Source: Rhizophagus irregularis | Lineage: Eukaryota | Reading direction: 5' to 3' | DNA: 64,000 bases | Assembly: GCF_026210795.1 (NCBI RefSeq) | Contig: NC_089430.1 | Span: 5,518,001-5,582,000 of the forward strand | Shown: piece by piece, positions 1,390 to 48,529 of the stretch | How the letters are laid out: each line of letters begins with the position of its first letter | Position numbering within the stretch: the first letter of the stretch is position 1 | The notes under the pieces: generated by a model | The model's input: only the letters and a program-made list of their open reading frames with translations | Databases searched by the model: none | What the model was told of the DNA's origin: nothing | Made by a program: the position numbers and the translations under genes

Positions 1390-1800
1390 TTAACTATTTT
1401 CATTAACGTTAATATTCAATTGAGAAATATTGATTTGTAAGGATTCTATTTAATAAATTAAGGCTTATTGTTAGTAATTGTGAACTAAGAGTATTTTAAA
1501 AATCGTTATATTTACCATTTTCATTAATATTCAATTGAGAAATGTTGATTTGTAAAGACTCTATTTAATAAATAATACTTTATATTATTAGTATTTTATA
1601 AACTAAGTGTTTTAAAGTCATTATATTTACCATTCTCATTAGTACTCAATTGAGAAAGATTACGCCGTAAAGATTCTATTTAATAAATTAATATTTTATT
1701 ATCAGTATTTATAAACTATGTATTTTTAAAGTTATACCACAGGTAAAATATTTACCATTCTTATCAATATTCAATTGAGAAAACCTAAGTTGTAAAGATT
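1390..1800 (-). repeat. Four tandem microexon+intron units (~120-bp period), each encoding ESLQ(I/L)xxSQLNxNEN
   Basis: Three 45-nt phase-1/phase-1 exons bounded by TAAATAG and GTAAAT, plus a terminal 56-nt exon. Confidence 0.75.
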
Positions 1801-7800: not shown

Positions 7801-10633
7801 ATTTTCTAAAGTTACAAGCATATCCTGATTTAGTCTTCCCCAATTTTGATATTTATCGTCCCATTTATGTATATATCCATCAATCCAATTTGCTCTATAT
7901 ACTCCAATTTTTTCAATATATTTAATATTATAAAATCTACTATAAGGTATCCATTCTAATGCATGTGATATTTCATTATCTTTATGAACTGATAGCTGAG
8001 TATCTTGAATAAGTCCATCAATTTCATTATTACCACTAGTCCAATTTATGAAATTTTGTTGAAAAAATGTTGCATTACATATATTATACCATTTTCTACA
8101 GTAACTGCTCAATACAACCATATAACTTTGTGTTTCTAGATCCTGAGTTATTCCATGAATTTTGTGATCTTTTCTTATCTATAAATATATATAGTATAAT
8201 GTATTAATAAAATAATTATATATTATAATTCAAGACTTTCATTAATGATTATATTAATCATACATACCACATTCATGAATTCTGTAGTAATTTCTTTTGA
8301 AATATTTAAATTTTTTATAGTTACAACTATATTTTGATTATATCTGTCCCAATTTTGATTGTAATCATTCCATTTCAATATAAACCCATCAATCCAATTT
8401 GCTTTATATATTTTGCCAAACCTATCTTCTGCTATAAATTCAATATTATAACATCTATCATAAGGTATCCATTCTAATGCATCTGATGATCCATGATCAG
8501 TATGTGCTGACAGCTGAGTATCTTGAATAAATTTATCAATATCTTTATTACCACTAGTCCAATTATCAAAATTTTGTTGAAAATATATTGAATTACATAT
8601 ACAATTACATTTTTCACATTTATTATCCAAAACTATCATATAATTTTTTGTTTCTGGATTTTGAGTTATTCCATAAAATTTATGATAAACTTTAATCTAC
8701 AAATATAATATATTATTAATAAATTTAAAATTTCCATATTTTTCATTAAATAATAAATTACCTTATTCATAAATTCTTTTGATACATTTTTTGGATTAAT
8801 TAAACTTTCTAAAGTTACAAACATATTCTGATTTAGCCTTCCCCAATTTTGACATTCATCATCCCATTTATATATTTTTCCATCAATCCAATTTGCTCTA
8901 TATACTCCAATTTTTTCAATATATTTAATATCATAAAATCTATCATAAGGTATCCATTCTAATGCATGTGATATTTCATTATATTGATGAACTGATAGCT
9001 GAGTATCTTGAATAAATTTATCAATATCTTTATTACCACTAGTCCAATTTATGAATTTATACTGAAAATGTATTGCATTACATATATAATTACATTTTTT
9101 ACATTTATTATTAAAACCATCATGTAGCATTTTGTTTCTGGATCCCGAGTTATTCCATAAATTTCATGATCTTTTCTTATCTATAAATATCATAATGTAT
9201 AAATATAGTAGTATAATGTATTAATAATTTTATTAATTATACTGTACCTCATTCATGAATTCTGTTGTAATTTCTTTTGAATTATTTAAATTTTTTATAG
9301 TTACAATCATATTTTGATCATATCTGTCCCAATTTTGATCATAATCATTCCATTTATATATTTTTCCATCAATCCAATTTGCTCTATATAATCCAATTTT
9401 TTCAATATATTTAATGTTATAAATCCTATTGTAAGGTATCCATTCTAATACATCTTTTATTTCATAGATTGAATGTGCTGATAACTGAGTAACTCGAATA
9501 AATTTATCAATATCTTTATCACCACTAGTCCAACTTATAAAATTTTGTTTAAAATGTATTGCATTACATATGAAAATACATTTTTCACATTTATAATTCA
9601 AAGCTATCATGTAACATTTTGTTTTTGGATCCTGGGTTATTCCATAAATGACATAGCTTTTTCTTATCTAAATGTATAATATATTAGTAAATTAAAACAT
9701 TAAAATTTTTTTCATTATATAATAAAATAGTTACTATACCTCATTTATAAATTCTGTTGTAGTAATTTCCTTTGAATTATTTAAATTTATTATAGTTACA
9801 ACCATATTTTGATTATATCTGTCCCAATTTTGATTATTATCATTCCATTTACTTATAAATCCATCAATCCAATTTGCTTTATATATTTTGCCAAGTTTAT
9901 GTTCTGCAATAAATTTAATATTGTTAAATTTATCATAAGATATCCATTCTGGTGCATTTGATGTTCCATATTTGGTATGAACTGATAGCTGAGTATCTTG
10001 AATAAATTTATCAATAACTTTGTTACCACTAGTCCAATTATCAAAATTTCGTTGAAAATATATTGAATTACATATATGGTTACATTTTTCACATATGTTA
10101 TCCAAAACCATCATATAATTTTTTGTTTCCGGATTTTGTGTTATCCCATAAAATTTATGATCAACTTTAATCTACAATAATAATATATTAGTAAATTTAA
10201 AAATTTCATAATTTCACATTAAATAATAAATTACCTTATTCATAAATTCTATTGATACATTTTTTGGAGTAATTATAACTTCTAAAGTTACAAGCATGTC
10301 TTGATTTAGTCTTTCCCAATTTTGATATTTATCATCCCATTTATATATTTTTCCATCAATCCAATTTGCTCTATATACTCCAATTTTTTCAATATATTTA
10401 ATACCATAAAATCTATCATAAGGTATCCATTCTAATGCATGTGATATTTCATTATCTTTATGAACCGATATCTGATCATCTTGAATAAATTGATCAATAT
10501 CTTTATTACCACTGGTCCAATTATCAAAATTTCGTTGAAAATATATTGAATTACATATACGATTACATATTTCACACATATTATTTAATTCTTCACTAAT
10601 GTAAGATAGCCTGATTGGTTTTTCCTTATCCAT
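1390..10633 (-). CDS. Kinase gene 1: TKL-type protein kinase with 16 tandem N-lobe-like exon modules, one C-lobe exon and 4 terminal microexons; two modules carry lesions (possible pseudogene)
   Basis: Exon 1 is 10633-10235 (MDKEKP...). Module acceptors at 10171, 9667, 9180, 8696, 8178, 7693, 7182, 6686, 6194, 5703, 5189, 4696, 4214, 3738 and 3256 are all AG|I/F-type and phase 0. The last module (3256-2825) has IAKGGFGKVY, VALK and EFMNE. C-lobe exon 2748-1887 has HRDLHTGN, DMG, APE and DIYSFG. Microexons are 1800-1756, 1675-1631, 1560-1516 and 1445-1390 (stop). There is a 1-nt frameshift near 9115 and an in-frame TAA at 4559-4561. Confidence 0.8.
2825..10633 (-). repeat. Tandem exon-intron array, 16 units of ~490-510 bp
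   Basis: Recurrent YGITQDPETKxYM, CxxCxxxC, WTSGNxxIDKFIQDTQLS, LEWIPY, ANWIDG and EFMNE/K|GT motifs at ~500-bp spacing. Confidence 0.95.
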
Positions 10634-20394: not shown

Positions 20395-23300
20395 ATGATG
20401 AGGAAATTATTATTGTCATTTCGTAATGACAAATGTGAAAGTTGCGGAAATGATCATTGTTATGTAAAACATTTTCAGAAAAATTTTATAAGTTGGACCA
20501 GTGGCAATGATAATATTGATAAATTTATTCAAGATACTCAGCTATCAGCTCATAATGATGTAAGGAGAGTATTAGAATGGATACCTTATGATAAATTTCA
20601 CAATATCAAACGTATTGCAAAAGGTGAATTTGGAAAAATATATATAGCAAATTGGATTGATGGACGTATAGATAAATGGGATTTTGAAAATCAAAATTGG
20701 AAAAGAGATAATCATAATATGTTTGTAAATTTGAAGAGTTTAAATACTCCAAATAATCTTACATTAGAATTTATAAATAAGGTAGAATAAAACTTATTAA
20801 CTTATTAACAAGATTATAAGTATTTTATTTTTCTAACCGAACATATTATTACATTTGTAGATTAAAATAGATCATGAATTTTATGGAATAACTCGGGATC
20901 CAAAAAAAAAAAATTATATGATGGTTTTGATTGATATATGTGGAGAGTGTAGTAAAATATGTAATTCAATACATTTTCAACAAAATTTCAAGAATTGGGC
21001 TAGTGATAATGATGATGTTGATAAATTTATTCAAGATACTCAGCTATCAGCTCATTATAATGTGAAGAAAGCATTAGAATGGATACCTTATAATGGATTT
21101 TACAATATCAAATATATTGCAAAAGATGAATTTGGCGAAATATATGAGGCAAATTGGATTGATGGAAATATACATTATTGGGATTATGTAAATCAAAATT
21201 GGAAAAGATATAATCATAATATGTTTGTAAATTTGAAAAGTTTAAATATTCCAGAAAATCTTACATTAGAATTTATAAATAAGGTATGATAAACTTATAA
21301 CTTGTTAACAAGATTATAAGTATTTTATTTTTCTAACATATTATTACATTTGTAGATTAAAATAGATCATGAATTTTATGGAATAACTCAGAACCCAGAA
21401 ACAAAAAATTACATGATGGTTTTGAATAATATATGTGAAAAGTGTGATGAAGTATGTAATTCAATATATTTTCAACGAAATTTCAAAAATTGGACTAGTG
21501 ATAATGATGATATTGATAAATTTATTCAAGATACTCAGCTATCAGCTCATTATGATGTAAAGAAAGCATTAGAATGGATACCTTATGATAAATTTCACAA
21601 TATCAAACATATTGCAAAAGATGAATTTGGCGAAATATATATAGCAAATTTGATTGATGGAAATATAAGTTATTGGAGTTATTGGGATTATGCAAATCAA
21701 AATTGGAAAAGAACTAATCATAATATGTTTGTAAATTTGAAAAGTTTAAATACTCCAGAAAATCTTACATTAGAATTTATAAATAAGGTATGATAAACTT
21801 ATTAACTTATTAGCAAGATTATAAGTATTTTTTTTCTAACATTATTGTTACATTTGTAGATTAAAATAGATCATGAATTTTACGGAATAACTTGGGATCC
21901 AAAAAAAAAAAATTATATGATGGTTTTGAATAATATATGTGAAGAGTGTAATAAAATATGTAATTCAATATATTTTCAACGAAATTTCAAAAATTGGACT
22001 AGTGATAATGATGATATTGATAAATTTATTCAAGATACTCAGTTATCAGCTCATAATTATGTAAAGAAAGCATTAGAATGGATACCTTATGATAAATTTC
22101 ACAATATCAATCATATTGCAAAAGGCGAATTTGGCGAAATATATATAGCAAGTTGGATTGATGGAAATATGAGTTATTGGGATCATGCAAATCAAAATTG
22201 GAAAAGAGATAATCGTAATATGTTTGTAAACTTGATGAGTTTAAATACTCCAGAAAATCTTACATTAGAATTTATAAATAGGGTATGAAAAACTTATTAA
22301 CTTATTAACAATATTATAAGTATTTTTTTTTTCTAACATATTATTACATTTGTAGATTAAAATAGATCATGAATTTTATGGAATAACTCGGAATCTAGAA
22401 AAAAATAATTATATGATGGTTTTGAATAATATATGTGAAGAGTATAAAGAGTGTAATAAAATATGTAATTCAATATATTTTCAACGAAATTTCAAAAATT
22501 GGACTAGCGATAATGATGATATTGATAAATTTATTCAAGATACTCAGTTATCAACTCATAATGATATAAATAAAGCATTAGAATGGATACCTTATGATAA
22601 ATTTCACAATATCAAACGTATTGCAAAAGGTGAATTTGGAAAAATATATATAGCAAATTGGATTGATGGACGTATAGATAAATGGGATTTTGAAAATCAA
22701 AATTGGAAAAGAGATAATCATAATATGTTTGTAAATTTGAAGAGTTTAAATACTCCAAATAATCTTACATTAGAATTTATAAATAAGGTATAATAAACTT
22801 ATTAACTTATTAACAAGATTATAAGTATTTTATTTTTCTAACTGAACATATTATTACATTTGTAGATTAAAATAGATCATGAATTTTATGGAATAACTCG
22901 GGATCCAAAAAAAAAAAATTATATGATGGTTTTGATTGATATATGTGGAGAGTGTAGTAAAATATGTAATTCAATACATTTTCAACAAAATTTCAAGAAT
23001 TGGGCTAGTGATAATGATGATATTGATAAATTTATTCAAGATACTCAGTTATCAGCTCATAATGATATAAATAAAGCATTAGAATGGATACCTTATGATA
23101 AATTTCACAATATCAAACGTATTGCAAAAGGTGAATTTGGAAAAATATATATAGCAAATTGGATTGATGGACGTATAGATAAATGGGATTTTGAAAATCA
23201 AAATTGGAAAAGAGATAATCATAATATGTTTGTAAATTTGAAGAGTTTAAATACTCCAAATAATCTTACATTAGAATTTATAAATAAGGTATAATAAACT

Positions 23301-25225
23301 TATTAACTTATTAATAAGATTATGAGTATTTTATTTTTCTAACTGAACATATTATTACATTTGTAGATTAAAATAGATCATGAATTTTATGGAATAACCC
23401 GGGATCCCAAAAAAAAAAATTATATGATGGTTTTGAATAATATATGTGAAGAGTGTAATAAAATATGTAATTCAATATATTTTCAACGAAATTTCGAAAA
23501 TTGGACTAGCGATAATGGTGATATTGATAAATTTATTCAAGATACTCAGCTATCAGCTCATAATGATGTAAATAAAGCATTAGAATGGATACCTGATGAT
23601 AAATTTCACAATATTAAACATATTGCAAAAGATGAATTTGGCGAAACATATATAGCAAATTGGATTGATGGAAATTTAAGTTATCGGAGTTATTGGGATC
23701 ATGCAAATCAAAATTGGAAAAGAGATAATCGTAATATGTTTGTAAATTTGAAAAGTTTAAATACTCCAGAAACTTTTACATTAGAATTTATAAATAATGT
23801 ATGATAAAATTTTTGACTTATTAACAAGATTATAAGTATTTTATTTTTCTAACATATTATTACATTTGTAGATTAAAATAGATCATGAATTTTATGGAAT
23901 AACTTGGGATCCAAAAAAAAAAAATTATATGATGGTTTTGAATAATATATGTGAAGAGTGTCATAAAATATGTAATTCAATATATTTTCAACGAAATTTC
24001 AAAAATTGGACTAGTGATAATGATGATATTGATAAATTTATTCAGAATACTCAGCTATCAGCTCATAATGATGTAAAGAATGCATTAGAATGGATACCTT
24101 ATGATAAATTTCACAATATCAATCATATTGCAAAAGATGAAGTTGGCGAAATATATATAACAAATTGGATTGATGGAAATATGCATTATTGGAATTATGT
24201 AAATCAAAATTGGAAAAGAAAGAATCATAATATGTTCGTGAATTTGAAGAGTTTAAATACCACAGAAAATCTTACATTAGAATTTATAAATAAGGTATGA
24301 TAAACTTATTAACTTATTAACAAGTTAAGTATTTTATTTTTCTAACATATTATTACATTTGTAGATTAGAATAGATCATGAATTTTATGGAATAACTTGG
24401 GACCCAAAAAAAAAAATTTATATGATGGTTTTGATTGATAATAAGTGTAAAAAATGCAATTATGCATGTAATGCAATACATTTTCAACGAAATTTTGAAA
24501 GTTGGACTAGTGGTAATAAAGATGTTGATAAATTTATTCAAGATGCTCAATTATCAGTTCATAAAGATGATGAAATATCACACGTACTAGAATGGATACC
24601 TTACGATAGATTTTATGGTATTAAATATATTGTAGAAAATAATATATACAAAGCAAATTGGATTGATGGATGTATAGATAAGTTGGATGATGAAAACCAT
24701 AAATTGAAAAGGTGTAATCAAAATATGTTTGTAACTTTGAAAAATTTGAATAATTCAAATAATGTCACATCAGAATTTATGAACAAGGTAATAAATATAT
24801 GCTATTATTTAATAAAATTCATTTTTACTAATATATTATATTTTTAGATTAAAATAGATCATGTGTTTTATGGAATAACTCAGGATGCGGAAACAAAAAG
24901 TTATATGATGGTATTGGAAGATATATGTGAAAAATGTAATTATGTGTGCAATGCAATAAATTTTCAAAGAAATTTCAACAATTGGACTAGTGGTAATAAT
25001 GATATTGACAAGTTTATTCAAGATACTCAGCTATCAGCACATTATAATACTGAAGCATTAGAATGGATACCTTATGATAAATTCCATGATATCAAATATA
25101 TTGCAAAAGGTGGACATGGTAAAGTATATAAAGCAGTTTGGGTCGATGGAAAATATCAAAATATGCTTGTAGCTTTAAAAAGTATAAATAATTCAAAAAA
25201 TATTACATTTGATTTTATGAATGAG
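20395..25225 (+). repeat. Tandem exon-intron array, 10 units of ~500 bp
   Basis: Same module motifs as gene 1. Units 1-8 share locus-specific features (NHNMFVNL, NLTLEFINK-type ends, WTSD/WASD in units 2-8, near-identical introns). Confidence 0.95.
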
Positions 25226-26476
25226 GTATTACAATGTATTCATTTTTTTGATTTGAATATTTAAAATTTAATTTCCAATTGACATTTTTTTTTATACTTA
25301 GATTGCAATACATAGTAAATTTAGTGATTTTGAAAATTTTACTATCGGGTTTTATGGAATAACTCAAGATCCAAATACAAAAGATTATATTATGGTTTTA
25401 AAATATGCGGATGATGGAAGCTTACGAAATTACTTAAATACAAATTATAATAAATTAAATTGGAATAGAAAAATTAGTCATTTACTTGAAATTGCACGTG
25501 GACTTGATTATATTCATGAAAATAAATTTATTCATCGAGATTTACATAGTGGAAATATTCTAATGTCTATAATTAAGGTATGGATAGCTGATATGGGATT
25601 ATGTAAACCAGCAGATTATAATCCATCGGAAGGTGCAAAAAATAACATATATGGCGTTTTGCCTTATATTGCTCCTGAAATTTTAAGAGGACAAAATTAT
25701 ACAAAAGCTTCAGATATCTATAGTTATGGTATAATTATGTATGAAATAATTTCTGGATTACCTCCATATCATGATATTGGTCATGATGAAAATTTAGCTA
25801 TAAAAATTTGTAAAGGACTCAGACCGAGGTTTAATATTAAAGTACCTCAATTGATTGTTTATTTAATTAAAAGATGCTTAGATGCAAATCAGATAAATAG
25901 ACCAATGGCAAAAGAAATTAGCGATATTTTATACAAATGGCAGTATAAAAGAAGTGATAGTCAAACAGTTGAATTACAAAAACAAATTAAAGATGCAGAA
26001 GGAATAAATAACAATTCAACAAAAGATAGTATTCCTTTGACTAATTTAGGATCATCATATAAAACACATTCCGAAGCGATTTATACAAGTAGACTACTTA
26101 AGTTTAATAATCTTCCCGAACCAAAAAATTCCGATGATTACTATAAACATACTGATAACATAATAAGTTTAGAATTTTCAGGTATTTTTAACGAAAAAAA
26201 AAATATTTAGAATAATTATTAAAGAATGTTACTAAAATATTACTTATTATTAAATAGCATCGTTGTCTCAACAAATTGATGTTTCTCAATTGAACATCAA
26301 TGATATTAATCATAAATCAAAAGATTTTAATTTTGAACAAAATGATGACATAACGAGCATGGAATATTCAGGTATTAATTTAATACTTACAAATTAGTAA
26401 GATTTATAAATACTAACCTAATTTTATTTTGTTAATTTGTTAAATAGAATCATTACAAATTGATATTTCACAATAA
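20395..26476 (+). CDS. Kinase gene 2: TKL-type protein kinase with 10 tandem N-lobe-like exon modules (~1,700 aa if all are spliced)
   Basis: Exon 1 is 20395-20781 (start uncertain). Acceptors at 20861, 21356, 21860, 22356, 22866, 23367, 23872, 24365 and 24848 are all in frame and phase 0. The last module has IAKGGHGKVY and VALK and ends at 25225. C-lobe exon 25302-26181 has HRDLHSGN, DMG and APE. Terminal exons are 26258-26371 and 26448-26476 (ESLQIDISQ*). Confidence 0.88.
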
Positions 26477-34793: not shown

Positions 34794-36960
34794 AACGACT
34801 TCATCCATATGTTAAATTCTTTGAGACTATATACCTTTCATTTATAAGTTATGGAAAAAGGCAAACGAACTTATTAAATACTAGATCTAGATTAGGAGGA
34901 TCAAAAATATAAATAGATTTAGTTTAGATGATAATATTTTCTTTATTAGAATAAGATAACCTGTTTAACCTACAAAATGAACTAAATAATGATATTTTGT
35001 CAATAAATTGGGAATAATTTGGTTTATTATTGATAGTAAGCAGCTCCTATATAAATAAAATAGAAAAGACTTTATTAAATACGTCGTAAAATTTAGTAAA
35101 TGTATCATCTATCATATTCCAAATTAACCGGGTGAATCTGATTATGTTGATTTGATATGCCGAAATCACAATAAATGGCTTGTTAATCATGATGATAGTG
35201 TATTAATTATTAAAGTACTTATTATAGCCTCTGAGCCTTGGCAAAAAAAAAATAACGTGTGTATTTAATTAATAAATATGATAATCAAAAACTTGTAATT
35301 TATATAAAACTCGATGATGAACTAAATAATGTACTAAATAATTATTCCTTTTGAGTGTTAAAAATGATTAAAGTTGTTAACTAAGAAATTTTAATCGACT
35401 CAAAAAGTTGAGTTCGTGATCGATCAAAATTCAAAAATCGATTAACCTTGATTGATCACGTACAATCGATTTTTTACTCAATTTAAACGATTGAACATTG
35501 AAAACGTTGCACATTTTTACAATAATTAATTTATTTTATTATAATATTTTTTATTAATTCATTATTTTATTCATTTACTATAATCAAAGTATCTTCTATA
35601 CCTCTTCTATACAGATTTATTTATGTACCATATCATGATCGATCGTTCAATTTTAATCGAGGCCAAATTGTTTGATTGATATCAAATCAATGATTGATAG
35701 TTAATTGGTTCAATTAAGAACCTTATGCTAGAATTGAAAACATAACTTAAAAGAAGAGTAGTTAACAATATCATTATATTTTCCGTGATCATCTATATTA
35801 TATTATACATCTGAATTTTGTTCCAAAGATGTTTTCACATTATGTGCAAACACGTTTCTTCCTTTATTGATATTTTTACGAACGTCGTCTAGATACCAAA
35901 AAGTTTATGATCAGTAGATTGGAATTATTTTTAGGATGTTAGTTTCAGTACAAAGCACAGGTCAGCCTTGATCTATCATCACGGCTCTGTCGTAGTAATT
36001 CAATAAAAAAGAAGGAAGAAAAAAAAATATGCGATGGTAATAAATAAGAATTAATTTTACTTTTATCAGAGGTTAATTTAAAATTAATTCACCAAAGGTG
36101 AATTTAAATTTTTTATTGTTTATTTTTAGTACTAACGTATTACTCAATTTCGGAGCAATCACGCTATCAGTAATAATTTGGAAAAATAGATTGAAGTCAC
36201 CATTTTAAATACAAGTAAATTAATACATTTGCATTTTTTAAAGGTTAGTCAGTAAGATATCTTTTTTATGCATTTCTGATTTTAATCAATTTAAATGTAC
36301 TAAATTCATCTTTTTTCATTCTATATCAGTATTTTAATAACAACAGTTTCTAAAGAACTTCTTAAATCATCAGATAATTGCATTCGTTAATAAAAAAATA
36401 TTACAATCGTAAGATATCACCAAGTTAATTTATAAATTTGCAATAATAAATCGTCTTTGTATTTATGCTATCTGGGTTATGTTCACACTACATGGAATTT
36501 TATTATTTTATCACACTCCTTTAAAATTTTAAATCGTTATTTATTTGAAAAAAAAAAAAAATTGATGCAAACATAAATATGAAATCATTACAACTTAAAA
36601 TTCTACCTAACATTATTCCCAGTTTCCCATCTATTTTTAACCATATATATAAAAACAAAAAAAAAATTGCAATTCAAATAACTATAGAAAAGCAAAAAAA
36701 AAAAATCATTTAAAAATAATTAGACCCGTCCATCTGGATTTTAAGGTTAAGCAGAATTTTAAATTGTAATAACAAAAAGAGTAATTTTATAGTAAAACTT
36801 TGATATAGTAGCAGAAAGATATATAATTATACTATTATTCTAATCTAATCTTCTAATCTAATTTTTTTTCTTTTACCTTCAGCTTCGTTATTTTGACCTA
36901 AGAAAAAAATAATACATTAAATTACAAATGAAAACTGAAATATAAAGTTATTATATAAAA

Positions 36961-37367
36961 TTAATATTTACTATTTTCATTAATATTCAATTGAGAAATA
37001 TTGAGTTGTAAAGAATCTATTTAATAAATTAAGACTTATTGTTAGTATTTATGAATTAAGAATATTTTAAAGTCGTTATATTTACCACTCTCATTAATAT
37101 TCAACTGAGAAATGTTGATTTGTAAAGACTCTATTTAATGAATAAATATTTATTATTTGTATTTTATAAACTAAGTATCTTAAAGTTATTATATTTACCA
37201 TTCTCATTAGTACTCAATTGAGAAATATTACGCCGTAAAGATTCTATTTAATAAATTAATATTTCATTATCAGTAATCATAAACTAGGTATTTTAAAGTT
37301 ATACCACAAGTAAAATATTTACCTTTCTTATTAATATTCAATTGAGAAAACCTAAGTTGTAAAGATT
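36961..37367 (-). repeat. Four tandem microexon+intron units, orthologous one-to-one to those at 1390-1800
   Basis: ESLQLRFSQLNINKK, ESLRRNISQLSTNEN, ESLQINISQLNINES, DSLQLNISQLNINENSKY*. Confidence 0.75.
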
Positions 37368-40300
37368 CTATTTAATAAAAAGTTTATTATTAGTATAATA
37401 TTAACTAAATATATTTACAAAAGTAACAATTAATATATTGCTTAACGGTAATACCTGAAAATTCCTTGCTTATTATATTATCACTTCGCTCATAATAATC
37501 ATCAGAATTTTTTGGTTTGGGAAGATTATTAAAATTAAGCAATCTACTTGTATAAATAGCTTCCGAATGTGTTTTATATAATAATTCTAAACTAGTCTGC
37601 GTATTTTCAGTTAATAATTTATTATTTATTACATCTGCTTTTTCAATTTGTCTTTGTAATTCTGTATCATATGATAATTGTGATGGGTCAAAAATTTCAT
37701 AAATTTCTTTTGCTGTTGGTCTATTTAATGGGTCCGAGTCTAAACATCTTTTAATTAAATGCATAATTAACTGTGGTACCTTAATATTAAATCTTGGTCT
37801 AAGCCCGTGACAAATTTTTATTGCTAAATGATTATTATGGCTCACATCATAATATGGAGGTAATCCAGAAATTATTTCGTACACTATTATACCAAAACTA
37901 TAAATATCAGCAGCTTTAGTATAATAATTCCTTCCTCTTAAAATTTCAGGAGCTATATATGGCAAAACACCATATGCACAGTTTTTTTTATTTTCTGATG
38001 CATTATAATTTGCAGGTTTACATAATCCCATATCAGTTATTTTTATGTAATTATTATTTATTAGTATATTGCCAGTATGCAGATCTCGATGAATTAGTTC
38101 ATTTTCATGAATGGTTCTAAGCCCAAATGCAATATCACATAAATATGTAATCTTATTGAACCAATTTAATTCATTGAATCTTGTATTTAAAAAATGCCGC
38201 AAACTTCCACTGTCTGCATATTCCAAAACCATAATATAATTTTCTGTTTCTGGATCTTGAGTTATTCCATAAAGTTTTATAATAATACCTCCACTTACTC
38301 TACTATGTAATTTAATCTATATATAAATGTAAATAAATAGTATTTTAATTATTAATAATAAATTAAATTGAATTAAATAAATGCACTATACCTCATTCAT
38401 AAATTCCGATGTGACATTTTTTGAATTATTTAAACTTTTCAGAGCTACAAACATATTCTGATCTTCTCTTTTCCAATTTTGATTTTCATCATCCCAACTA
38501 TTTCGGTACATTATACATCCATCAATCCAATTTGCTTTATACACTTTGCCAAACCCACCTTTTGCAATATATTTAATATCATAAAATCTATTATACGGAA
38601 CCCATTCTATTACATTATATGTGCGATTATGAGCTAACAACTGGCTATCTTGAATAAATTTGTCAATATCATCATTACCGCTAGTCCAATCTATGAATTT
38701 ATGTTGAAAGTGTATTGCATTACATATATTGTTACACTTTTTACATTTATTATTAAAAACCAACATATAATTTTTTGTCTCAGAATCCTGAGTTATTCCA
38801 TAAATTTCATGATCTTTTCTTATCTACAAATATAGTATATTTATTAATAAACTAATTAAAAATTTCATTTAATAATTAAATTAAAAATACTGTACCTCGT
38901 TCATGAATTCTATTGTAATTTCTTTTGAATTATTTAAACTTTTTATATTTAAAACCATCTTCTGAATTTTTCTGTTCCAATTTTGATACTTATCATCCCA
39001 TTTACATATTCTTTCATCAATCCAATTTGCTCTATATACTCCAATTTTTTCAATATATTTGATATTATAAAATCTATCATAAGGTATCCATTCTAATGCA
39101 TGTGATATTTCATTATCTTCATGGACTGATAGCTGAGTATCTTGAATAAATTTATCAATATCCTTATTACCACTGGTCCAATCTATAAATTCATGTTGAA
39201 AATGTATTGTATTACATATGTAATCACATTTTTTACACTTGTTGTTAAAAATCATCATGTAATATTTTGTTTCTAAATCCTGAGTTATTCCATAAATTTC
39301 ATGATCTTTTCTTATCTACAAATAGTATAATTATTAACTAAAATTTAAAATTTTCATTTAAAAATTAAATTAATTATACTGTACCTCATTCATGAATTCT
39401 ATTGTAATTTCTTTTGAATTATTTAAACTTTTTATATTTACAACCATTTTCTGAAAATTTCTGTTCCAATTTTGATATTTATTATCCCATTTACATATTC
39501 TTCCATTAATCCAATTTGCTCTATATACTCCAATTTTTTCAATATATTTGATATTATAAAAGCTATCATAAGGTATCCATTCTAATGCATTTGACATTTC
39601 ATTATCTTTATGAACTGATAGCTGAGTATCTTGAATAAATTTATCAATATCTTTATTACCACTGGTCCAATCTATAAATTTATGTTGAAAATGTATTGTA
39701 TTACATATGTCATTACATTTTTTACATTTACTATTAAAAACCATCATGTAATATTTTGTTTCTGGATTCTGAGTTATTCCATAAATTTCATGGTTTTTTC
39801 TTATCTACAAACGTAGAATAATTATTAATAAACTAAAATTCAAAATTTTCACTTAATACTAATAATAATTAATTATACTTTACCTCATTCATAAATTCTA
39901 TTGTAATTTCTTTTGAATTATTTAAACTTTTAATGTTTACAACCATATTTTGATTATATCTGTTCCAATTTTGATATTTATCATCCCATTTATATATTTT
40001 TCCATCAATCCAATTTGCTCTATATACTCCAATTTTTTCAATATATTTGATATTATAAAATCTGTCAAAAGGTATCCATTCTAATACTTCTTTGAATACT
40101 TCATCATTATTATGCATTGATAGCTGAGTATCTTGAATAAATTTATCAATATCTTTATTACCACTAGTCCAATTTTTAAAATATTGATGAAAATATATTA
40201 AATTACGCATGTATTTACATTTTTCATATATATAATTCAAAACCATCGTGTAACATTTTGTTTCTGGATTCTGAGTTATTCCATAAATTTCATGATTTTT

Positions 40301-43300
40301 TCTTATCTACTAACATAGTACAATTATTAGTAAACTAAAATTCGAACTTTTCATTTAATAATTAAATTAATTATTCTGTACCTCATTCATGAATTCTATT
40401 GTAATTTCTTCTGAATTATTCAAACTTTTTATATTTACAATCATATTTTCATATCTGTTCCAATTTTGATTATAACTATTCCATTCATATATTTTTCCAT
40501 CAATCCAATTTGCTCTATATTCTCCAATTTTTTCAATATATTTGATATTATAAAATCTATCATAAGGTATCCATTCTAATGCATTTAACATTTCATTATT
40601 TTTATGAACTGATAGCTGAGTATCTTGAATAAATTTATCAATATCATCATTACCACTGGTCCAATCTATGAATTTATATTGAAAGTATATTACATTACAT
40701 ATGCTACTACATTTTTTACATTTATTATTAAAAACCATCATGTAATATTTTGTTACTGGATCCTGAGTTATTCCATAAATTTCATGATCTTTTCTTACCT
40801 ACAAATATAGTACAATTATTAATAAACTAAAATTCAAAATTTTTATTTAATAATTAAATTAATTAAACTGTACCTCATTCATGAATTCTATTGTAATTTC
40901 TTTTGAATTGCTTAAACTTTTTATATTTACAACCATTTTTTGAACATTTCTGTTCCAATTTTGATATTTATCATCCCATTTACATATTCTTCCATCAATC
41001 CAATTTGCTCTATATACTCCAATTTTTTCAATATACTTGATATTATTAAATCTATCATAAGGTATCCATTCTAATGCATTTGATATTTCATTAATGTTAT
41101 GAACTGATATCTGAGTATCTTGAATAAATTTATCAATATCATCATTACCACTAGTCCAATCTATGAATTTATATTGAAAGTATATTGCATTACATATGCT
41201 GTTACACTTTTTACATTTATTTTTAAAAACCATTATGTAATATTTCGTTTCTGGATCCTGAGTTATTCCATAAATTTCATGGTCTTTTCTTATCTACAAA
41301 TATAGTATAATTATTAATAAACTAAAATTCGAAATTTTCATTTAATAATCAAATTAATTATACTGTACCTCATTCATGAATTCTATTGTAATTTCTTTTG
41401 AATTATTTAAACTTTTTATATCTACAACTATATTTTGATTACATCTGCTCCAATTTTGATTATGATTATCCCATTTAAATATTTTTCCATCAATCCAATT
41501 TGCTCTACATGCCCCAATTTTTTCAATATATTTGATATTATAAAATCTATCATAAGGTATCCATTCTAATGCATCTTCAAATACATAATTATAATGTGTT
41601 GATAGCTGGGTATTTTGAATAAATTTATCAATATCTTTATTACCACTGGTCCAATCTATGAATTTATATTGAAAGTATATTGCACTACATATGCTATTAC
41701 ACTTTTTACATTTATTATTAAAAACAATCATGTAATATTTTGTTTCTGGATCCTGAGTTATTCCATAAATTTCATGGTCTTTTCTTGTCTGCAAATATAG
41801 TATAATTATTAATAAACTAAAATTCAAATTTTTCATTTAATAATTAAATTAATTATATTATACTGTACCTCATTCATGAATTCTATTGTAATTTCTTTTG
41901 AATTATTTAAACTTTTTAAACTTACAACCATATATTGAACATTTCTGTTCCAATTTTGATATTTATCATCCCATTTACATATTCTTCCATCAACCCAATT
42001 TGCTCTATATACTCCAATTTTTTCAATATATTTTATATGATAAAATCTATCATAAGGTATCCATTCTAATGCATGAAACATTTCACTATCTTTATGAACT
42101 GACAACTGAGTATCTTGAATAAATTTATCAATATCTTTATTACCACTGGTCCAATCTATAAATTTATGTTGAAAATGTATTGCATTACATATGTAATTAC
42201 ATTTTTTACATTTATTATTAAAAACTATCATGTAATATTTTGTTTCTGGATCCTGAGTTATTCCGTAAATTTCATGATTTTTTCTTATCTATAAATATAG
42301 TATAATTATTAATAAACTAAAATTCGAAATTTTCACTTAATAATTGAATTAATTATATTGTACCTTATTCATAAATTCTATTGTAATTTCTTTTGAATTG
42401 CTTAAACTTTTTATATTTACAACCATATTTTGATCAAATCTACACCAATTTTGATTATTTCCTTCATCCCATCCTTCTATTTTTCCATCAACCCAATTTG
42501 CTTTATATACTCCAAATTTTTCAATATATTTGATATTATTAAATCTATCATAAGGTATCCATTCTAATGCATTTGACATTTCATTATTATCATGTGCTAA
42601 TAACTGAGTATCTTGAATAAATTTATCAATATCTTTATTACCACTGGTCCAATCTATAAATTCATGTTGAAAATGTATTGTATTACATATGTAATCACAT
42701 TCTTTACATTTATTATTGAAAACCATCATGTAATATTTTGTTACTGGATCCTGAGTTATTCCATAAATTTCATGATCTTTTCTTATCTACAAATTTAGTA
42801 TAATTATTAATAAAATAAAACTCAAAATTTCATTTAATAATTAAATTAATTATATTGTACCTCACTAATGAAATCTATAGTAATTTCTTTTGAATTATTT
42901 AAACTTTTTATATTTACAACCATATTTTGATCATATCTGTCCCAATTTTGATTATGGCTATCCCATTCATATATTTTTCCATCAATCCAATTTGCTCTAT
43001 ATTCTCCAATTCTTTCAATATATGTGATATTATAAAATCTGTCAAAAGGTATCCATTCTAATACTTCTTTGAATACTACATCATTATTATGCATTGATAG
43101 CTGAGTATCTTGAATAAAATTATCAATATCTTTATTACCACTGGTCCAATCTATGAATTCATACTGAAAATATTCTGTATAATATATGTAATCATATTTT
43201 TCACATTTATAATTAAAAACCATCATGTAATATTTTGTTTCTGGATCCTGAGTTATTCCATAAATTTCATGATCTTTTCTTATCTATAAATATAGTATAA

Positions 43301-46300
43301 TTATTAATAAAATAAAATTAAAAATTTTCATTTAATAATTAAATTAATTATACTGTACCTCATTCATGAATTCTATTGTAATTTCTTTTGAATTATTTAA
43401 ACTTTTTATATTTACAATCATTTTCTGAACATTTCTGTTCCAATTTTGATATTTATCATCCCATTTACATATTCTACCATCAACCCAATTTGCTCTATAT
43501 ACTCCAATTTTTTCAATATATTTTATATGATAAAATCTATCATAAGGTATCCATTCTAATGCATGAAACATTTCACTATCTTTATGAACTGACAACTGAG
43601 TATCTTGAATAAATTTATCAATATCTTTATTACCACTGGTCCAATCTATAAATTTATGTTGAAAATGTATTGCATTACATATGTAATTACATTTTTTACA
43701 TTTATTATTAAAAACTATCATGTAATATTTTGTTTCTGGATCCTGAGTTATTCCGTAAATTTCATGATTTTTTCTTATCTATAAATATAGTATAATTATT
43801 AATAAACTATAATTCAAAATTTTATCTAATAATTAAATTAATTATACTGTACCTCATTCATAAATTCTATTGTAATTTCTTTTGAATTATTTAAACTTTT
43901 TATATTTAAAACCATTTTCTGAACATTTCTGTTCCAATTTTGATATTTATCATCCCATTTATATATTCTTCCATCAACCAAATTTGCTCTAGATATTCCA
44001 ATTTTTTCAATATATTTGATATTATAAAATCTTTCATAAGGCATCCATTCTAATGCATTTGGCATTTCATTATCTTTATGAACTGATAGCTGAGTATCTT
44101 GAATAAATTTATCAATATCTTTATTACCACTAGTCCAATCTATGAATTCATGTTGAAAATGTATTGTATTACATATATAATCACATTTTTTACATTTATT
44201 ATTAAAAACCATTATATAATATTTTGTTTCTGGATCCTGAGTTATTCCATAAATTTCATGATCTTCTCTTATCTACAAATATAGAATAATTATTAATAAA
44301 TTAAGATTCAAATTTTCACTTAATACTAATATTAATTACTGTAATTATACTTTACCTCATTTATGATCCCTATTGTAATTTCTTTTGAATTATTTAAACT
44401 TTTAAAATTTACAATCATATTTTCATATCTGTTCCAATTTTGATTATAATTATTCCATTCATATATCTTTCCATCAATCCAATTTGCTCTATATACTCCA
44501 ATTTTTTCAATATATTTGATATTATAAAATCTATCATAAGGTATCCATTCTAATGCATTTGACATTTCATTATTTTTATGAACTGATAGCTGAGTATCTT
44601 GAATAAATTTATCAATATCATCATTACCACTGGTCCAATTTATAAATTCATGTTGAAAATGTATTGTATTACATATGCTATTACATTTTTTACATTTACT
44701 ATTAAAAGCAATCATGTAATATTTTGTTTCTGGATCCTGAGTTATTCCATAAATTTCATGATCTTTTCTTATCTACAAATATAGTATAATTATTAAATAA
44801 ATTAAATTCAAAATTTCATTTAATAATTAAATTAATTGTACTGTACCTCGTTCATGAATTCTATTGTAATTTCTTTTAAATTATTTAAACTTTTTAAATT
44901 TACAATCATTTTCTGAACATTTCTGCTCCAATTTTGATATTTATCATCCCATTTATATATTCTTCCATCAGCCCAATTTGCTCTATATACTCCAACCTTT
45001 TTAATATATTTGATATTATAAAGTTTATCATAAGGTATCCATTCTAATGCATTTGATATTTCATTATCTTTATGAACTGATAGCTGAATATCTTGAATAA
45101 ATTTATCAATATCATCATTACCACTGGTCCAATCTATGAATTTATATTGAAAGTATATTACATTACACATGCTATTACATTTTTTACATTTATTATTAAA
45201 AGCAATCATGTAATATTTTGTTTCTGGATCCTGAGTTATTCCATAAATTTCATGATCTTCTCTTATCTACAAATATAGAATAATTATTAATAAACTAAAA
45301 TTCAAAATTTTCATTTGATACTAATAATAATTAATGATACTTTACCTCATTTATGAATCCTATTGTAATTTCTTTTGAATTATTTAAACTTTTTATATTT
45401 ACAACCATATTTTGATAATATCTGCACCAATTTTGATGATAATCCCATTCACACATTTTTCCATCAACCCAATTTGCTATATATACTCCAATTTTTTCAA
45501 TATATTTGATATTATAAAATCTATCATAAGGTATCCATTCTAATGCTACCTTAAATACATCATCATAATCATGTGCTAATAACTGAGTATCTTGAATAAA
45601 TTTATCAATATCTTCATTACCACTGGTCCAATCTATGAATTTATATTGGAAGTGTATTGCATTACATATGTAATCACATTCTTTACATTTATTATTGAAA
45701 ACCATCATGTAATATTTTGTTTCTGGATCCTGAGTTATTCCATAAATTTCATGATCTTTTCTTATCTACAAATATAGTATAATTATTAATAAACTAAATT
45801 CAAAATTTTCATTTAATACTTAAATTAATTATACTGTACCTCGTTCATGAATTCTATAGTAATTTCTTCTGAATTATTTAAATTTTTTATATTTACAACC
45901 AAATTTTGGTAAAATCTACACCAATTTTGATCATACCATTCACACATTTTTCCATCAACCCAATTTGCTCTATACACTCCAATTTTTTCAATATATTTGA
46001 TATTATAAAATCTATCATAAGGTATCCATTCTAATGCTACCTTAAATACATCATCATTATTATCATGTGCTAGTAACTGAGTATCTTGAATAAATTTATC
46101 AATATCTTTATTTCCACTGGTCCAATCTATAAATTCATGTTGAAAATGTATTGTATTACATATGTAATCACATTTTTTACATTTATTATTAAAAATCATC
46201 ATGTAATATTTTGTTTCTGGATCCTGAGTTATTCCATAAATTTCATGATCTTTTCTTATCTACAAATATAGTATAATTATTAATAAATTAAAATTAAAAA

Positions 46301-48213
46301 TTTTCATTTAATAATAAAATTAATTATAATGTACCTCATTTATGAATTCTATTGTAATTTCTTTTGAATTATTTAAACTTTTTATATTTATAATCATATT
46401 TTTATATCTGTTCCAATTTTGATTATCATTATTCCATTCATATATTTTTCCATCAATCCAGTTTGCTCTATATACTCCAATTTTTTCAATATATTTGATA
46501 TTATAAAATCTATCATAAGGTATCCATTCTAATACATATGATATTTCATTATCTTCATGAACTGATATCTGAGTATCTTGAATAAATTTATCAATATCTT
46601 TATTACCACTTGTCCAATCTATGAATTCATGTTGAAAATGTATTGCATTACATATGTAATTACATTTTTTACATTTATTATTAAAAACCATTATGTAATA
46701 TTTTGTTTCTGGATCCTGAGTTATTCCATAAATTTCATGGTCTTTTCCTATCTACAAATATAGTATAATAATTAATAAACTAAAATTCAAAATTTCATTT
46801 AATGATTAAATTAATTATACTGTACCTTATTCATGAATTCTAATGTAATTCCTTTTGAATTATTTAAACTTTTTATATTTATAACCATATTTTTATATCT
46901 GTGCCAATTTTGATTATAATTATTCCATTCATATATTTTACCATCAATCCAATTTGCTATATATACTCCAATTTTTTCAATATATTTGATATTATAAAAT
47001 CTATCATAAGGTATCCATTCTAATGCATGTGATATTTCATTATCTTCATGAACTGATAGCTGAGTATCTTGAATAAATTTATCAATATCATCATTACCAC
47101 TGGTCCAATTTATGAATTCATGTTGAAAATGTATTGTATTACATATGTAATTACATTTTTTACATTTATTATTAAAAACCATTATGTAATATTTTGTTTC
47201 TGGATCCTGAGTTATTCCATAAATTTCATGGTCTTTTCTTATCTACAAATATAATATAATTATTAATAAACTAAAATTCAAAAATTCCATTTAATAATTA
47301 AATTAATTATACTGTACCTCATTCATGAATTCTAATGTAATTTCTTTTGAATTATTTAAACTTTTTATATTTATAACCATATTTTTATATCTGCTCCAAT
47401 TTTTATAATAATTATTCCATTCACATATTTTTCCATCAATCCAATTTGCTCTATATACTCCAATTTTTTCAATATATTTGATATTATAAAATCTATCATA
47501 AGGTATCCATTCTAATGCATTTGACATTTCATTATCTTTATGAACTGATATCTGAGTATCTTGGATAAATTTATCAATATCTTTATTACCACTGGTCCAA
47601 TCTATGAATTTATATTGAAAGTATATTGCATTACATATGCTGTTACACATTTTACATTTATTATTAAAAACCATCATGTAATATTTTGTTTCTGGATCCT
47701 GAGTTATTCCATAAATTTCATGGTCTTTTCTTGTCTGCAAATATAGTATAATTATTAATAAACTAAAATTCAAATTTTTCATTTAATAATTAAATTAATT
47801 ATATTATACTGTACCTCATTCATGAATTCTATTGTAATTTCTTTTGAATTATTTAAACTTTTTAAACTTACAACCATATATTGAACATTTCTGTTCCAAT
47901 TTTGATATTTATCATCCCATTTACATATTCTTCCATCAAGCCAATTTGCTCTATATACTCCAATTTTTTCAATATATTTGATATTATAAAATCTGTCATA
48001 AGGTATCCATTCTAATGCACTTGATTTTCCACATTTGGTATGATCTGATAGCTGAGTATCTTGAATAAATTTGTCAATATCTTTATTGTCACTGGTCCAA
48101 TTTATGAAATTTTGTTGAAAACGTATTGCATAACATATGTAATTACATTTTTCACATATATTATTTAATTCTTTATTAATATAAGACGGTTCAATTGGTT
48201 TTTTTTTATCCAT
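36961..48213 (-). CDS. Kinase gene 3: intact TKL-type protein kinase with 20 tandem N-lobe-like exon modules, C-lobe exon and 4 microexons (~3,100 aa if all are spliced)
   Basis: Start 48213 (MDKKKP...). Acceptors at 47734, 47242, 46751, 46259, 45765, 45266, 44772, 44272, 43778, 43283, 42786, 42288, 41788, 41293, 40798, 40306, 39804, 39315 and 38823 were each checked in frame with the listed ORFs. The last module has IAKGGFGKVY and VALK and ends at 38392. C-lobe exon is 38316-37455. Microexons are 37367-37323, 37243-37199, 37130-37086 and 37016-36961. Confidence 0.9.
38392..48213 (-). repeat. Tandem exon-intron array, 20 units of ~490-500 bp
   Basis: 20 recurrences of the module motifs with highly similar ~75-80-nt introns. 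Confidence 0.95.
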
Positions 48214-48529
48214 TGGATTTATATAGTAATTTTATAAAGCATCGATGTATTTGTAATAAAAACCAAGTATAAAAAATTTTTTTTTTTTTTCAGCCCGAGA
48301 CGATTAAATGAACAATATTAATGCACAGTCACGTGATAAGCGTAATAGTGTCACTACTATCACGTGACTTATAATATAACTAAACGATCGTTGATTGAAT
48401 TTCCTTTCTGAAAATTAGTGTAACATTGTGTAACTAATTCGGATAAAATTTCTTTTTTGGAATTGTGTAAAAGTCACGTGATATAAACAAAGTTGACACG
48501 GTAGAATTTAGTAATTCAGGCCGGCATTA

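What the first reader, a model, noticed from the sequence alone, without database searches (positions are those of the whole stretch)
36961..48213. Giant kinases built from tandem arrays of an isolated kinase N-lobe module ('poly-N-lobe' kinases)
Seen: in three genes a ~140-aa exon is repeated 20, 16 and 10 times before one catalytic C-lobe exon. Read across the intron, each repeat is a Cys motif, a WTSGN-IDKFIQ linker, beta1-2 (EWIPY..F..I..I...G.YxANW), beta3 (VxIK/VxLK), alphaC (EFMNE), then beta4-5 (YGITQDPETKxYMMV). That is a whole protein-kinase N-lobe with no C-lobe. Only the last copy in each gene keeps the full KGG(F/H)GKVY loop and VALK, while upstream copies delete or acidify the loop (IEKIGVY, AKDEFGEIY). 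Established: AM fungi have hugely expanded TKL kinases, and repeat-domain sensors coupled to a signalling domain are typical of non-self recognition. Inference: the N-lobe has been co-opted as a repeated interaction or decoy domain, giving a variable sensor-kinase. I do not know of a description of this architecture but cannot search for one.
Basis: partly seen in the sequence, partly recalled or inferred. Interest (0 to 1): 0.92.

Follow-up and report, generated by a model that had tools for sequence, protein, structure and literature searches.

The report
Fungal kinases with stacked half-kinase repeats
Root-symbiotic (arbuscular mycorrhizal) fungi carry kinase genes in which the front half of the kinase is repeated up to twenty times before the one complete enzyme domain, and these disarmed half-kinases likely serve as a row of protein-binding baits that would control the enzyme, an architecture I found no description of.

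Summary
Confirmed. The window, from a Rhizophagus fungus, holds three kinase genes with 20, 16 and 10 tandem ~140-aa modules before one C-lobe exon. Genes A (about 3,150 aa) and C (1,732 aa) are intact; B is broken. In models of close relatives, each module folds as a kinase N-lobe (best RIPK2, Z 8.2, rmsd 2.6) behind a Cys/helical extension. The ATP loop survives in 65 of 66 last modules but in 3 of 280 upstream ones. Module cores are under purifying selection (omega about 0.5). RNA-like contigs splice module exons and the last module to the C-lobe; no full-length transcript was seen. The architecture occurs in Rhizophagus, Acaulospora, Ambispora and Gigasporaceae. A tree rejects one origin of the upstream modules, and the junction falls at the end of beta5 in the lineages inspected. 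The closest precedent is the single partial kinase duplication of wheat RWT4, which binds a pathogen effector. A bait or sensor role is inferred only; diversifying selection was not robust. Ten literature searches found no description. The scan earlier noted a similar-sounding fungal locus on other DNA and judged it non-coding.

The parts
36845..48213 (-). Gene A: poly-N-lobe TKL-type kinase, 20 modules plus C-lobe plus tail, open frame of about 3,150 aa
47815..48213 (-). Gene A exon 1: start codon, Cys motif, helical hairpin, beta1-beta3 and alphaC of module 1
38896..47734 (-). Gene A exons 2-19: 18 phase-0 exons of 417-423 nt; each holds beta4-beta5 of one N-lobe and the extension, beta1-beta3 and alphaC of the next; all have a degenerate Gly loop
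38392..38823 (-). Gene A exon 20: last module with KGGFGKVY and VALK (N-lobe of the catalytic domain)
   Evidence: PF07714 positions 5-51, E 0.025, below the curated cut-off
37455..38316 (-). Gene A catalytic exon: beta4-beta5, hinge, C-lobe with HRD, DMG, APE
   Evidence: PF07714 E 3.6e-41; spliced joint 38316/38392
36972..37367 (-). Gene A: four 45-nt phase-1 mini-exons repeating a 15-aa tail motif
36845..36897 (-). Gene A: likely last exon with a basic, NLS-like motif, matched by the tails of 4 of 80 catalytic homologues
   Evidence: splicing of this exon not observed
1409..10633 (-). Gene B: paralogue with 16 modules, last module 2825-3256, C-lobe exon ending at 2748; broken by a frameshift in module 4 (near 9165) and a stop at 4559-4561; the part after the stop reads the same as annotated protein P0063 (compared by eye)
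20395..26476 (+). Gene C: paralogue with 10 modules (last 24848-25225, lacking the beta2-beta3 hairpin), C-lobe exon 25302-26181, open frame of 1,732 aa

Best explanation
Gene A is a spliced fungal kinase gene whose first 19 repeats are copies of the kinase's own N-terminal extension and N-lobe that lack the ATP-binding loop and are predicted to fold as N-lobes, and these copies likely act as a row of non-catalytic protein-binding baits that would switch the single terminal kinase on or off. Shown by sequence and tools: the exon architecture, the open frame, the loss of the Gly loop and the VAxK Ala in upstream copies only, intact HRD/DxG/APE motifs in the C-lobe, purifying selection on the module core, and splicing of module exons in RNA-like contigs. 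Predicted: the N-lobe fold of each module and a zinc site in the extension (three Cys plus a His here, four Cys in other lineages). Inferred history: a duplication joined the end of beta5 to the start of the Cys motif, which yields a symmetric phase-0 exon that unequal crossing-over can multiply; this happened, or was renewed, separately in several Glomeromycota lineages. Inferred function: each module displays the N-lobe surface shared with the fungus's very large single-module kinase family. Proteins that target that surface (kinase-directed factors of endobacteria, viruses, mycoparasites or the plant, or partner kinases) would bind the array with avidity and trigger or release the terminal kinase, as the partial kinase duplication of wheat RWT4 does for a pathogen effector.
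For: Architecture and open frames. Fold: in an AlphaFold2 model of P0063 (pLDDT 74.6), the upstream modules repeat the secondary-structure pattern of the catalytic N-lobe. A model of P0074, which has no C-lobe (pLDDT 81), matched only kinases in Foldseek (best E 2.2e-3, about 100 columns). In a search of 48,161 chains, both of its complete modules matched N-lobes (RIPK2 Z 8.2, rmsd 2.6, 74 aa, model 3-95; MLKL Z 8.1, rmsd 2.9, model 144-235), and all 50 listed rows are kinases or kinase-fold enzymes, judged by title and my own knowledge. Polarity: GG[FYH] loop in 65 of 66 last modules against 3 of 280 upstream; VALK in 55 of 66 against 5 of 280 (66 of 120 homologues could be scored). Constraint: core omega 0.48, 0.53 and 0.39 for genes A, C and B, each below 1 at p<0.003, and 0.53 in a stricter subset. 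There are 0 stops in 18 exons of A where roughly 60 are expected if neutral; 6 of 6 exon gap lengths are multiples of three, against 2 of 9 in the introns. Recurrence: modules of four lineage groups each form one side of a branch with their own last modules, and an AU test rejects one clade of upstream modules (p 1e-73, 41 rows). In the proteins listed, beta5 runs straight into the next module's extension (usually its Cys motif) instead of the hinge. Zinc: the His is present in 469 of 498 three-Cys modules and in 1 of 266 four-Cys modules (not independent events). Precedent: RWT4 KDup and the decoy model for tandem kinases. Endobacteria of these fungi hold host-derived kinases, and one such protein has the same extension (P0340).
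Against: No ligand, binding or regulation was shown. Omega above 1 in the loop after the His (2.14, p 1.4e-4) and in the beta2-beta3 hairpin (1.54, p 0.015) of gene A fell to 1.3-1.5 and 1.0-1.2, not significant, once 6 modules with uncertain alignment were dropped and local trees were used. It was not significant in C and below 1 in B. Core omega near 0.5 is weak constraint and could reflect only the need to fold. Gene B in the same window is broken, and many database homologues lack a C-lobe (catalytic motif found in 77 of 120). No contig spans more than one or two exons, so one mRNA from module 1 to the C-lobe is not shown. The runs are only guessed to be RNA, and paralogue B (91-94% identical in this part) could supply the spliced joint. 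The models are of relatives, not of gene A, and a top Z of 8 is near the background of that search (note).
Confidence: 0.42

Rival explanations
1. Self-scaffold or autoregulator: the modules fold, but their partners are the fungus's own kinases, or the terminal kinase itself. The array would set dimerisation, clustering or autoinhibition through N-lobe surfaces such as alphaC, as pseudokinase domains do in JAK, with no role in sensing foreign proteins.
For: The beta3 Lys is mostly kept in upstream modules (184 of 224), and the alphaC Glu is kept in most window modules. Diversifying selection is not robust. In Rhizophagus subfamily 1, upstream modules of different genes form their own group (33 of 36 rows, SH-aLRT 98), which suggests an old, stable role. 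The closest structural rows (RIPK2, MLKL, RIPK3, JAK2 pseudokinase) are regulated by kinase-kinase contacts (my own knowledge).
Against: A fixed regulatory role does not obviously need copy numbers from 2 to 20, or rapid turnover of modules within genes (modules mostly group by gene). The predicted fold of the whole array is not rigid (pTM 0.56-0.58).
Confidence: 0.25
2. Tolerated amplification: a symmetric exon is multiplied by unequal crossing-over in a repeat-rich genome. The copies are kept in frame and foldable only because the terminal kinase must still be translated, and the ATP loop decays because it is unused.
For: High-copy kinase genes in this fungus lie in methylated, gene-sparse, transposon-linked regions (PMC8647823, passages). 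Whole-module omega is high, 0.64-0.82 by counting, and loops evolve near omega 1. Gene B is broken, and decayed remnants lie nearby. An earlier scan note (e1-9917726, unchecked) reports a fungal locus of about 19 kinase front ends judged non-coding.
Against: Amino-acid constraint in the core goes beyond keeping the frame open. The same domain-respecting junction and the same loss of the ATP loop recur in separate lineages. An upstream-specific group is shared across genes and species. Arrays of 17-18 modules are annotated as single proteins in R. clarus and R. irregularis.
Confidence: 0.23
3. The long protein is not made: transcripts skip most module exons or stop early, so the products are short kinases with a few modules and kinase-free module chains (a cassette-exon system).
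For: All module exons are phase 0-0, so skipping keeps the frame. One RNA-like contig joins the exon-1 donor to the exon-5 acceptor (46259/47815, 27 letters on the short side), and three runs skip three tail mini-exons (37016/37455). No annotated protein matching the whole of gene A was listed.
Against: The exon-1/exon-5 joint is ambiguous, because module ends are near-identical and paralogues exist. All 20 exons are intact and under constraint, so all are translated in some product. Skipping would not exclude a bait role.
Confidence: 0.1

Closest known systems
Wheat RWT4/WTK3 tandem kinase with its integrated kinase duplication (KDup) (bioRxiv 10.1101/2024.04.30.591956, passages)
   Same: A partial copy of the kinase's own N-terminal part, lacking catalytic capacity, sits in front of an active kinase. 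In RWT4 two KDup residues are needed to bind the fungal effector AvrPWT4.
   Different: RWT4 has one partial copy that stops before the active-site Lys, and it also has a full pseudokinase; the paper says no other resistance TKP has such a domain. Here the unit is a complete N-lobe through beta5 with a Cys/helical extension, repeated up to 19 times, in a fungus, with no pseudokinase and no known ligand.
Plant tandem kinase proteins (Rpg1, WTK1-4, Sr62TK) (PMC8761531 passages; 10.1101/2024.08.30.610287 passages)
   Same: Disarmed kinase-derived domain fused to an active kinase, proposed as decoy and regulator. In Sr62TK a variable hairpin of the N-lobe is the predicted effector site.
   Different: Those are whole kinase or pseudokinase domains, two in number. 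The Sr62 finger extends the last two N-lobe strands, whereas the extra hairpin here lies between beta2 and beta3.
JAK pseudokinase-kinase pairs, MLKL, EGFR kinase-domain duplication (rows; mechanism from my own knowledge)
   Same: Duplicated kinase-fold domains in one chain with one catalytic output.
   Different: All keep both lobes; none of the listed solved structures has free N-lobes in series.
Expanded tyrosine-kinase-like kinases of Rhizophagus irregularis (PMC8647823 and PMC10234402, passages)
   Same: The terminal domain is a member by Pfam PF07714; public records label these proteins simply as kinase-domain proteins.
   Different: The passages seen treat them as a high-copy family (2,533 members) and do not mention the repeated N-lobe; upstream modules have no Pfam match.

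Membership tests
Protein kinase, PF07714 / TKL-like (terminal domain) | Kinase profile match above the curated cut-off | tested here: met
   C-lobe exons of A and C score 141.6 and 135.1 bits against a cut-off of 23.1; model of P0063 best matches RIPK1/RIPK2
Protein kinase, PF07714 / TKL-like (terminal domain) | Gly loop, VAxK, alphaC Glu, HRD, DxG, APE present | tested here: met
   Seen in A, B and C; HRD in 74 of 77, DxG in 71 of 77, APE in 68 of 77 homologues with a catalytic motif
Protein kinase, PF07714 / TKL-like (terminal domain) | Phosphotransfer activity | not testable with these tools
   needs an assay
Kinase N-lobe fold (upstream modules) | Five-stranded sheet plus alphaC superposable on solved N-lobes | tested here: met
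   predicted models of relatives: (Z 8.2, rmsd 2.6, 74 aa on RIPK2 8-97)
Tandem kinase proteins (TKP) | Two whole kinase or pseudokinase domains in one chain | tested here: not met
   one C-lobe only; a single PF07714 stretch in each of five array proteins scanned
Tandem kinase proteins (TKP) | Direct binding of a pathogen effector and immune output | not testable with these tools
   no ligand known
RWT4-type integrated kinase duplication (KDup) | Partial duplicate of the protein's own kinase N-terminus upstream of an active kinase | tested here: met
   upstream modules group with last modules of their own lineage
RWT4-type integrated kinase duplication (KDup) | Duplicate ends before the active-site Lys; single copy; fused to a pseudokinase | tested here: not met
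   modules run through beta5, 184 of 224 keep the Lys, up to 19 copies, no pseudokinase
Variable non-self receptor (NLR-like repeat sensor) | Diversifying selection on exposed repeat positions | tested here: inconclusive
   omega 2.1 and 1.5 in gene A but 1.0-1.5 and not significant in the stricter test
Zinc-binding module | Four metal ligands in suitable geometry | tested here: inconclusive
   Cys3+His against Cys4 exchange; weak zinc-ribbon Pfam hits below cut-off in P0168 and P0208; coordinates could not be inspected

The most novel reading that the evidence does not exclude
The kinase N-lobe has become an autonomous, zinc-capped repeat domain, and mycorrhizal fungi have repeatedly built from it a family of variable intracellular immune receptors: arrays of baits that mimic the fungus's own thousands of kinases and fire a terminal RIPK-like kinase when a kinase-targeting protein of an endobacterium, virus or other invader binds. 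This would be a fungal counterpart, arrived at independently, of cereal tandem-kinase resistance proteins.
Probability: 0.3. Interest if true: 0.92.

Novelty: new variant of a known kind. Interest (0 to 1): 0.76.

Why it matters
Kinase N-lobes are normally treated as half of an inseparable two-lobed domain. Here they appear to be kept on their own as a repeat unit, up to 19 in a row, across several genera of mycorrhizal fungi. That is a new domain architecture which current annotation misses. It gives structural biologists a natural free N-lobe. It also gives a concrete, testable handle on an open question: what the huge kinase expansion of arbuscular mycorrhizal fungi is for, and whether these fungi have kinase-based immune receptors.

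Tried and rejected
Assembly artefact: rejected, because copies differ, short-read contigs of several runs match many stretches with no differences over 100-260 nt, and similar arrays are annotated in other species and on megabase contigs. Chain of separate whole-kinase genes: rejected, because there is one C-lobe per gene and the frame is continuous. Single origin of the upstream modules: rejected by an AU test (quick tree, LG+G4, 41 selected rows). The careful 125-row tree did not finish in two runs, so the quick tree is quoted. Positive selection: seen, not robust; two attempts to read omega from IQ-TREE failed and were replaced by my own codon model. Three Diversispora hits are near-identical duplications with intact Gly loops and were not counted as this architecture. 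No whole genome was held, so arrays per genome could not be counted. No RNA holder was on record in the run search. A second, finer laying of RNA contigs on module junctions and a silent control stretch was not obtained, so module-to-module splicing rests alone. The complex predictor was not available, so module-kinase docking is untested. No annotated protein equal to the whole of gene A was listed among 130 hits of 1,038-3,306 aa (120 shown). The Atlas search returned only Mucoromycota kinase clusters. PMC5982333 and PMC8778642 (passages) had nothing on this architecture. Scan look-ups by sequence, genome and a second word set found nothing relevant.
Full report
Observation. Six-frame translation and splice-site modelling confirm three arrays: gene A (- strand, 48213 to about 36845) with 20 modules, gene B (- strand, 10633 to about 1409) with 16, and gene C (+ strand, 20395-26476) with 10. 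In gene A the module exons are 417-432 nt, separated by phase-0 GT..AG introns of 69-83 nt. The 24 introns of the 25-exon model are all GT..AG, and the frame is open for 3,145 aa, or about 3,160 aa with a likely last exon at 36897-36845. Gene C is open for 1,732 aa. Gene B has a 1-nt frameshift in module 4 and a stop in module 13. Pfam matches the C-lobe exons strongly and the last modules weakly; the three upstream exons scanned had no match at E up to 1. The best 120 of 506 longer homologues are all named Rhizophagus irregularis, R. clarus or R. diaphanus, and the 3' part of gene B reads the same as one of them, P0063 (compared by eye), which places the window in Rhizophagus.

What a module is. 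The exon is a circular permutation of the domain: it starts with beta4-beta5 of one N-lobe and continues with the Cys motif, two helices, beta1-beta2, an inserted hairpin, beta3 and alphaC of the next. I could not fold gene A itself and used annotated relatives. The model of P0063 (82 sequences, pLDDT 74.6, pTM 0.58) gives the upstream modules the same strand and helix pattern as the catalytic N-lobe, and its kinase best matches RIPK1 and RIPK2. The model of P0074, which has no C-lobe and is 81% identical to a gene A module (70 sequences, pLDDT 81.0), hit only kinases in Foldseek, though none at E below 0.001. In an exhaustive comparison with 48,161 chains, both complete modules aligned to N-lobes (RIPK2 Z 8.2, rmsd 2.6, 74 residues; MLKL Z 8.1; RIPK3 Z 7.9; JAK2 pseudokinase Z 7.7). 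All 50 rows shown are kinases or kinase-fold enzymes by title and my own knowledge. Z 8 alone is near that search's background; the unanimity of the list and the sequence motifs carry the assignment. The extension probably binds zinc: modules with three Cys carry a His after the second helix in 469 of 498 cases, modules with four Cys in 1 of 266 (200 modules fitted neither pattern). This is one evolutionary exchange, not hundreds.

Only the last N-lobe is armed. In the window 0 of 43 upstream modules and 3 of 3 last modules have the GG(F/H)G loop and VALK. Among the 120 homologues, 77 had a catalytic motif and 66 could be scored. The loop is in 65 of 66 last and 3 of 280 upstream modules, and VALK in 55 of 66 and 5 of 280; the beta3 Lys survives in 184 of 224 upstream modules where beta3 was located. 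HRD is intact in 74 of 77 C-lobes.

The array is translated and constrained. Gene A exons carry no stop where roughly 60 are expected under neutrality (a rough estimate with kappa 7), and their 6 gap lengths are all multiples of three, against 2 of 9 in the introns. A codon model gives core omega 0.48 (A), 0.53 (C) and 0.39 (B), each below 1 at p<0.003 (last modules, first exons and B's two broken exons left out). The loop after the His and the beta2-beta3 hairpin gave omega 2.14 and 1.54 in A. With 6 of 18 modules of doubtful alignment removed and local trees, these fell to 1.3-1.5 and 1.0-1.2, not significant, while the core stayed near 0.5. So purifying selection is firm and diversifying selection is not shown. 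Module halves often have different closest partners, which suggests recombination.

Transcription. No run was on record as RNA. Three runs guessed to be RNA (X13, X16, X18; two studies) have contigs that skip the 75-nt intron between the last module and the C-lobe exon, with 47-60 letters on the short side. The fourth run, X2, lacks this joint and has a contig reading through that intron. Several contig pieces with no differences end exactly at module splice sites (X18 at 41293 and 42288; X13 at 44847 and 45840), and X18 has three 200-263-nt pieces with no differences in the C-lobe exon. Limits: these are short contigs, the 92% likeness floor admits paralogue B (94% and 91% identical in these exons), no silent control stretch was laid, and a full-length mRNA is not shown.

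Distribution and origin. A full HMMER scan found 1,749 representatives at E up to 0.001 (150 listed). Thirty were looked up, chosen for being divergent: 18 Rhizophagus, 5 Acaulospora morrowiae, 3 Diversispora epigaea, and one each of Ambispora leptoticha, Dentiscutata erythropus, Racocetra fulgida and Gigaspora margarita; none lay outside mycorrhizal fungi. Degenerate upstream modules before an armed one are seen in Acaulospora, Ambispora, Dentiscutata and Gigaspora. Racocetra has a five-module fragment; the Diversispora proteins are near-identical duplications with intact loops and were not counted. Arrays of 17-18 modules are annotated in R. clarus (2,709 and 3,061 aa) and R. irregularis (2,533 aa), and of 12 in Acaulospora. 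In a 125-module quick tree, two Rhizophagus subfamilies, Acaulospora and Ambispora each form one side of a branch holding both their upstream and their last modules (support 97, 49, 100, 90). An AU test on 41 rows rejects a single clade of upstream modules (p 1e-73). Thus the arrays arose several times or were renewed from each lineage's own catalytic N-lobe. In the proteins listed, beta5 runs directly into the next module's extension, usually its Cys motif, where the catalytic copy has its hinge, so the domain boundary is respected; some array proteins have lost the Cys part altogether.

Mechanism. The most likely reading (0.42) is a row of non-catalytic baits that control one kinase; the rivals are a self-scaffold or autoregulator (0.25), tolerated amplification (0.23) and cassette splicing without a long protein (0.10). 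The bait model rests on analogy. In wheat RWT4 a single partial duplication of the kinase N-terminus is required to bind a fungal effector (10.1101/2024.04.30.591956, passages; restated in PMC13600239, one passage). Pseudokinases of tandem kinases are modelled as decoys and regulators (PMC8761531, passages). A variable N-lobe hairpin is the predicted effector site in Sr62TK (10.1101/2024.08.30.610287, passages). Mollicutes-related endobacteria of these fungi have taken up host kinases (PMC10507103, passages), and one such LRR-kinase carries the same extension (P0340), which puts this kinase family at a host-microbe interface but proves nothing about the arrays. For tolerated amplification, these kinase families lie in methylated, transposon-linked regions (PMC8647823, passages), and an unchecked scan note describes a fungal locus of about 19 kinase front ends judged non-coding (e1-9917726); genes A and C differ from that in being intact and constrained.

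Novelty. Ten full-text searches and passages of nine papers gave no description of repeated N-lobes in these fungi; the phrase 'isolated N-lobe' occurred in none of the 20 listed papers. The library lacks most subscription journals, and I opened no supplements, where genome papers could list such domain architectures. It is not a tandem kinase protein by definition (one C-lobe), and it differs from KDup in extent and copy number. I file it as a new variant of a known kind (kinase with an integrated kinase-derived domain), with a new repeat unit. Interest 0.76.

Noticed in passing
window 36972-37367 (-) and 1409-1847 (-): A second, smaller tandem exon array at the 3' end of genes A and B: four mini-exons of about 45 nt with a period of about 113 nt. 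Three RNA-like runs join the C-lobe exon directly to the fourth mini-exon, which is either skipping or a paralogue.
   Followed up: partly
window 36845-36897 (-): Likely last exon of gene A with a basic NLS-like motif, similar to the tails of 4 of 80 catalytic homologues; hints at a nuclear isoform.
   Followed up: partly
window 32952-34812 (+): Gene with AIG1-type GTPase (E 1e-5, just under the cut-off) and Hint (above the cut-off) matches, lying between genes C and A.
   Followed up: no
window 14279-15820 (+): Gene with a BACK domain match, probably a BTB-BACK protein of the expanded families of this fungus.
   Followed up: no
window 60095-64000 (-): Reverse transcriptase and RNase H reading frames of a non-LTR retroelement, in two frames.
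   Followed up: no
window 18164-18720 (+) and about 50170-50330 (+): Decayed remnants of a kinase C-lobe exon and of one module.
   Followed up: no
window 48326-48371: Perfect 12-bp inverted repeat whose arms each contain TCACGTGA, upstream of gene A; 10 such motifs in the window, three within 300 nt of gene A's start and one about 600 nt before gene C.
   Followed up: no
window 54340-55640: Tandem array of 7.5 copies of a 172-nt unit at 96% matches.
   Followed up: no
protein P0340: LRR plus kinase protein from a Mycoplasmataceae metagenome bin that carries one copy of the same Cys/WTSGN extension and N-lobe as the fungal family.
   Followed up: partly
window 11288-12493 (-): 402-codon open frame without a Pfam match next to the start of gene B.
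   Followed up: no
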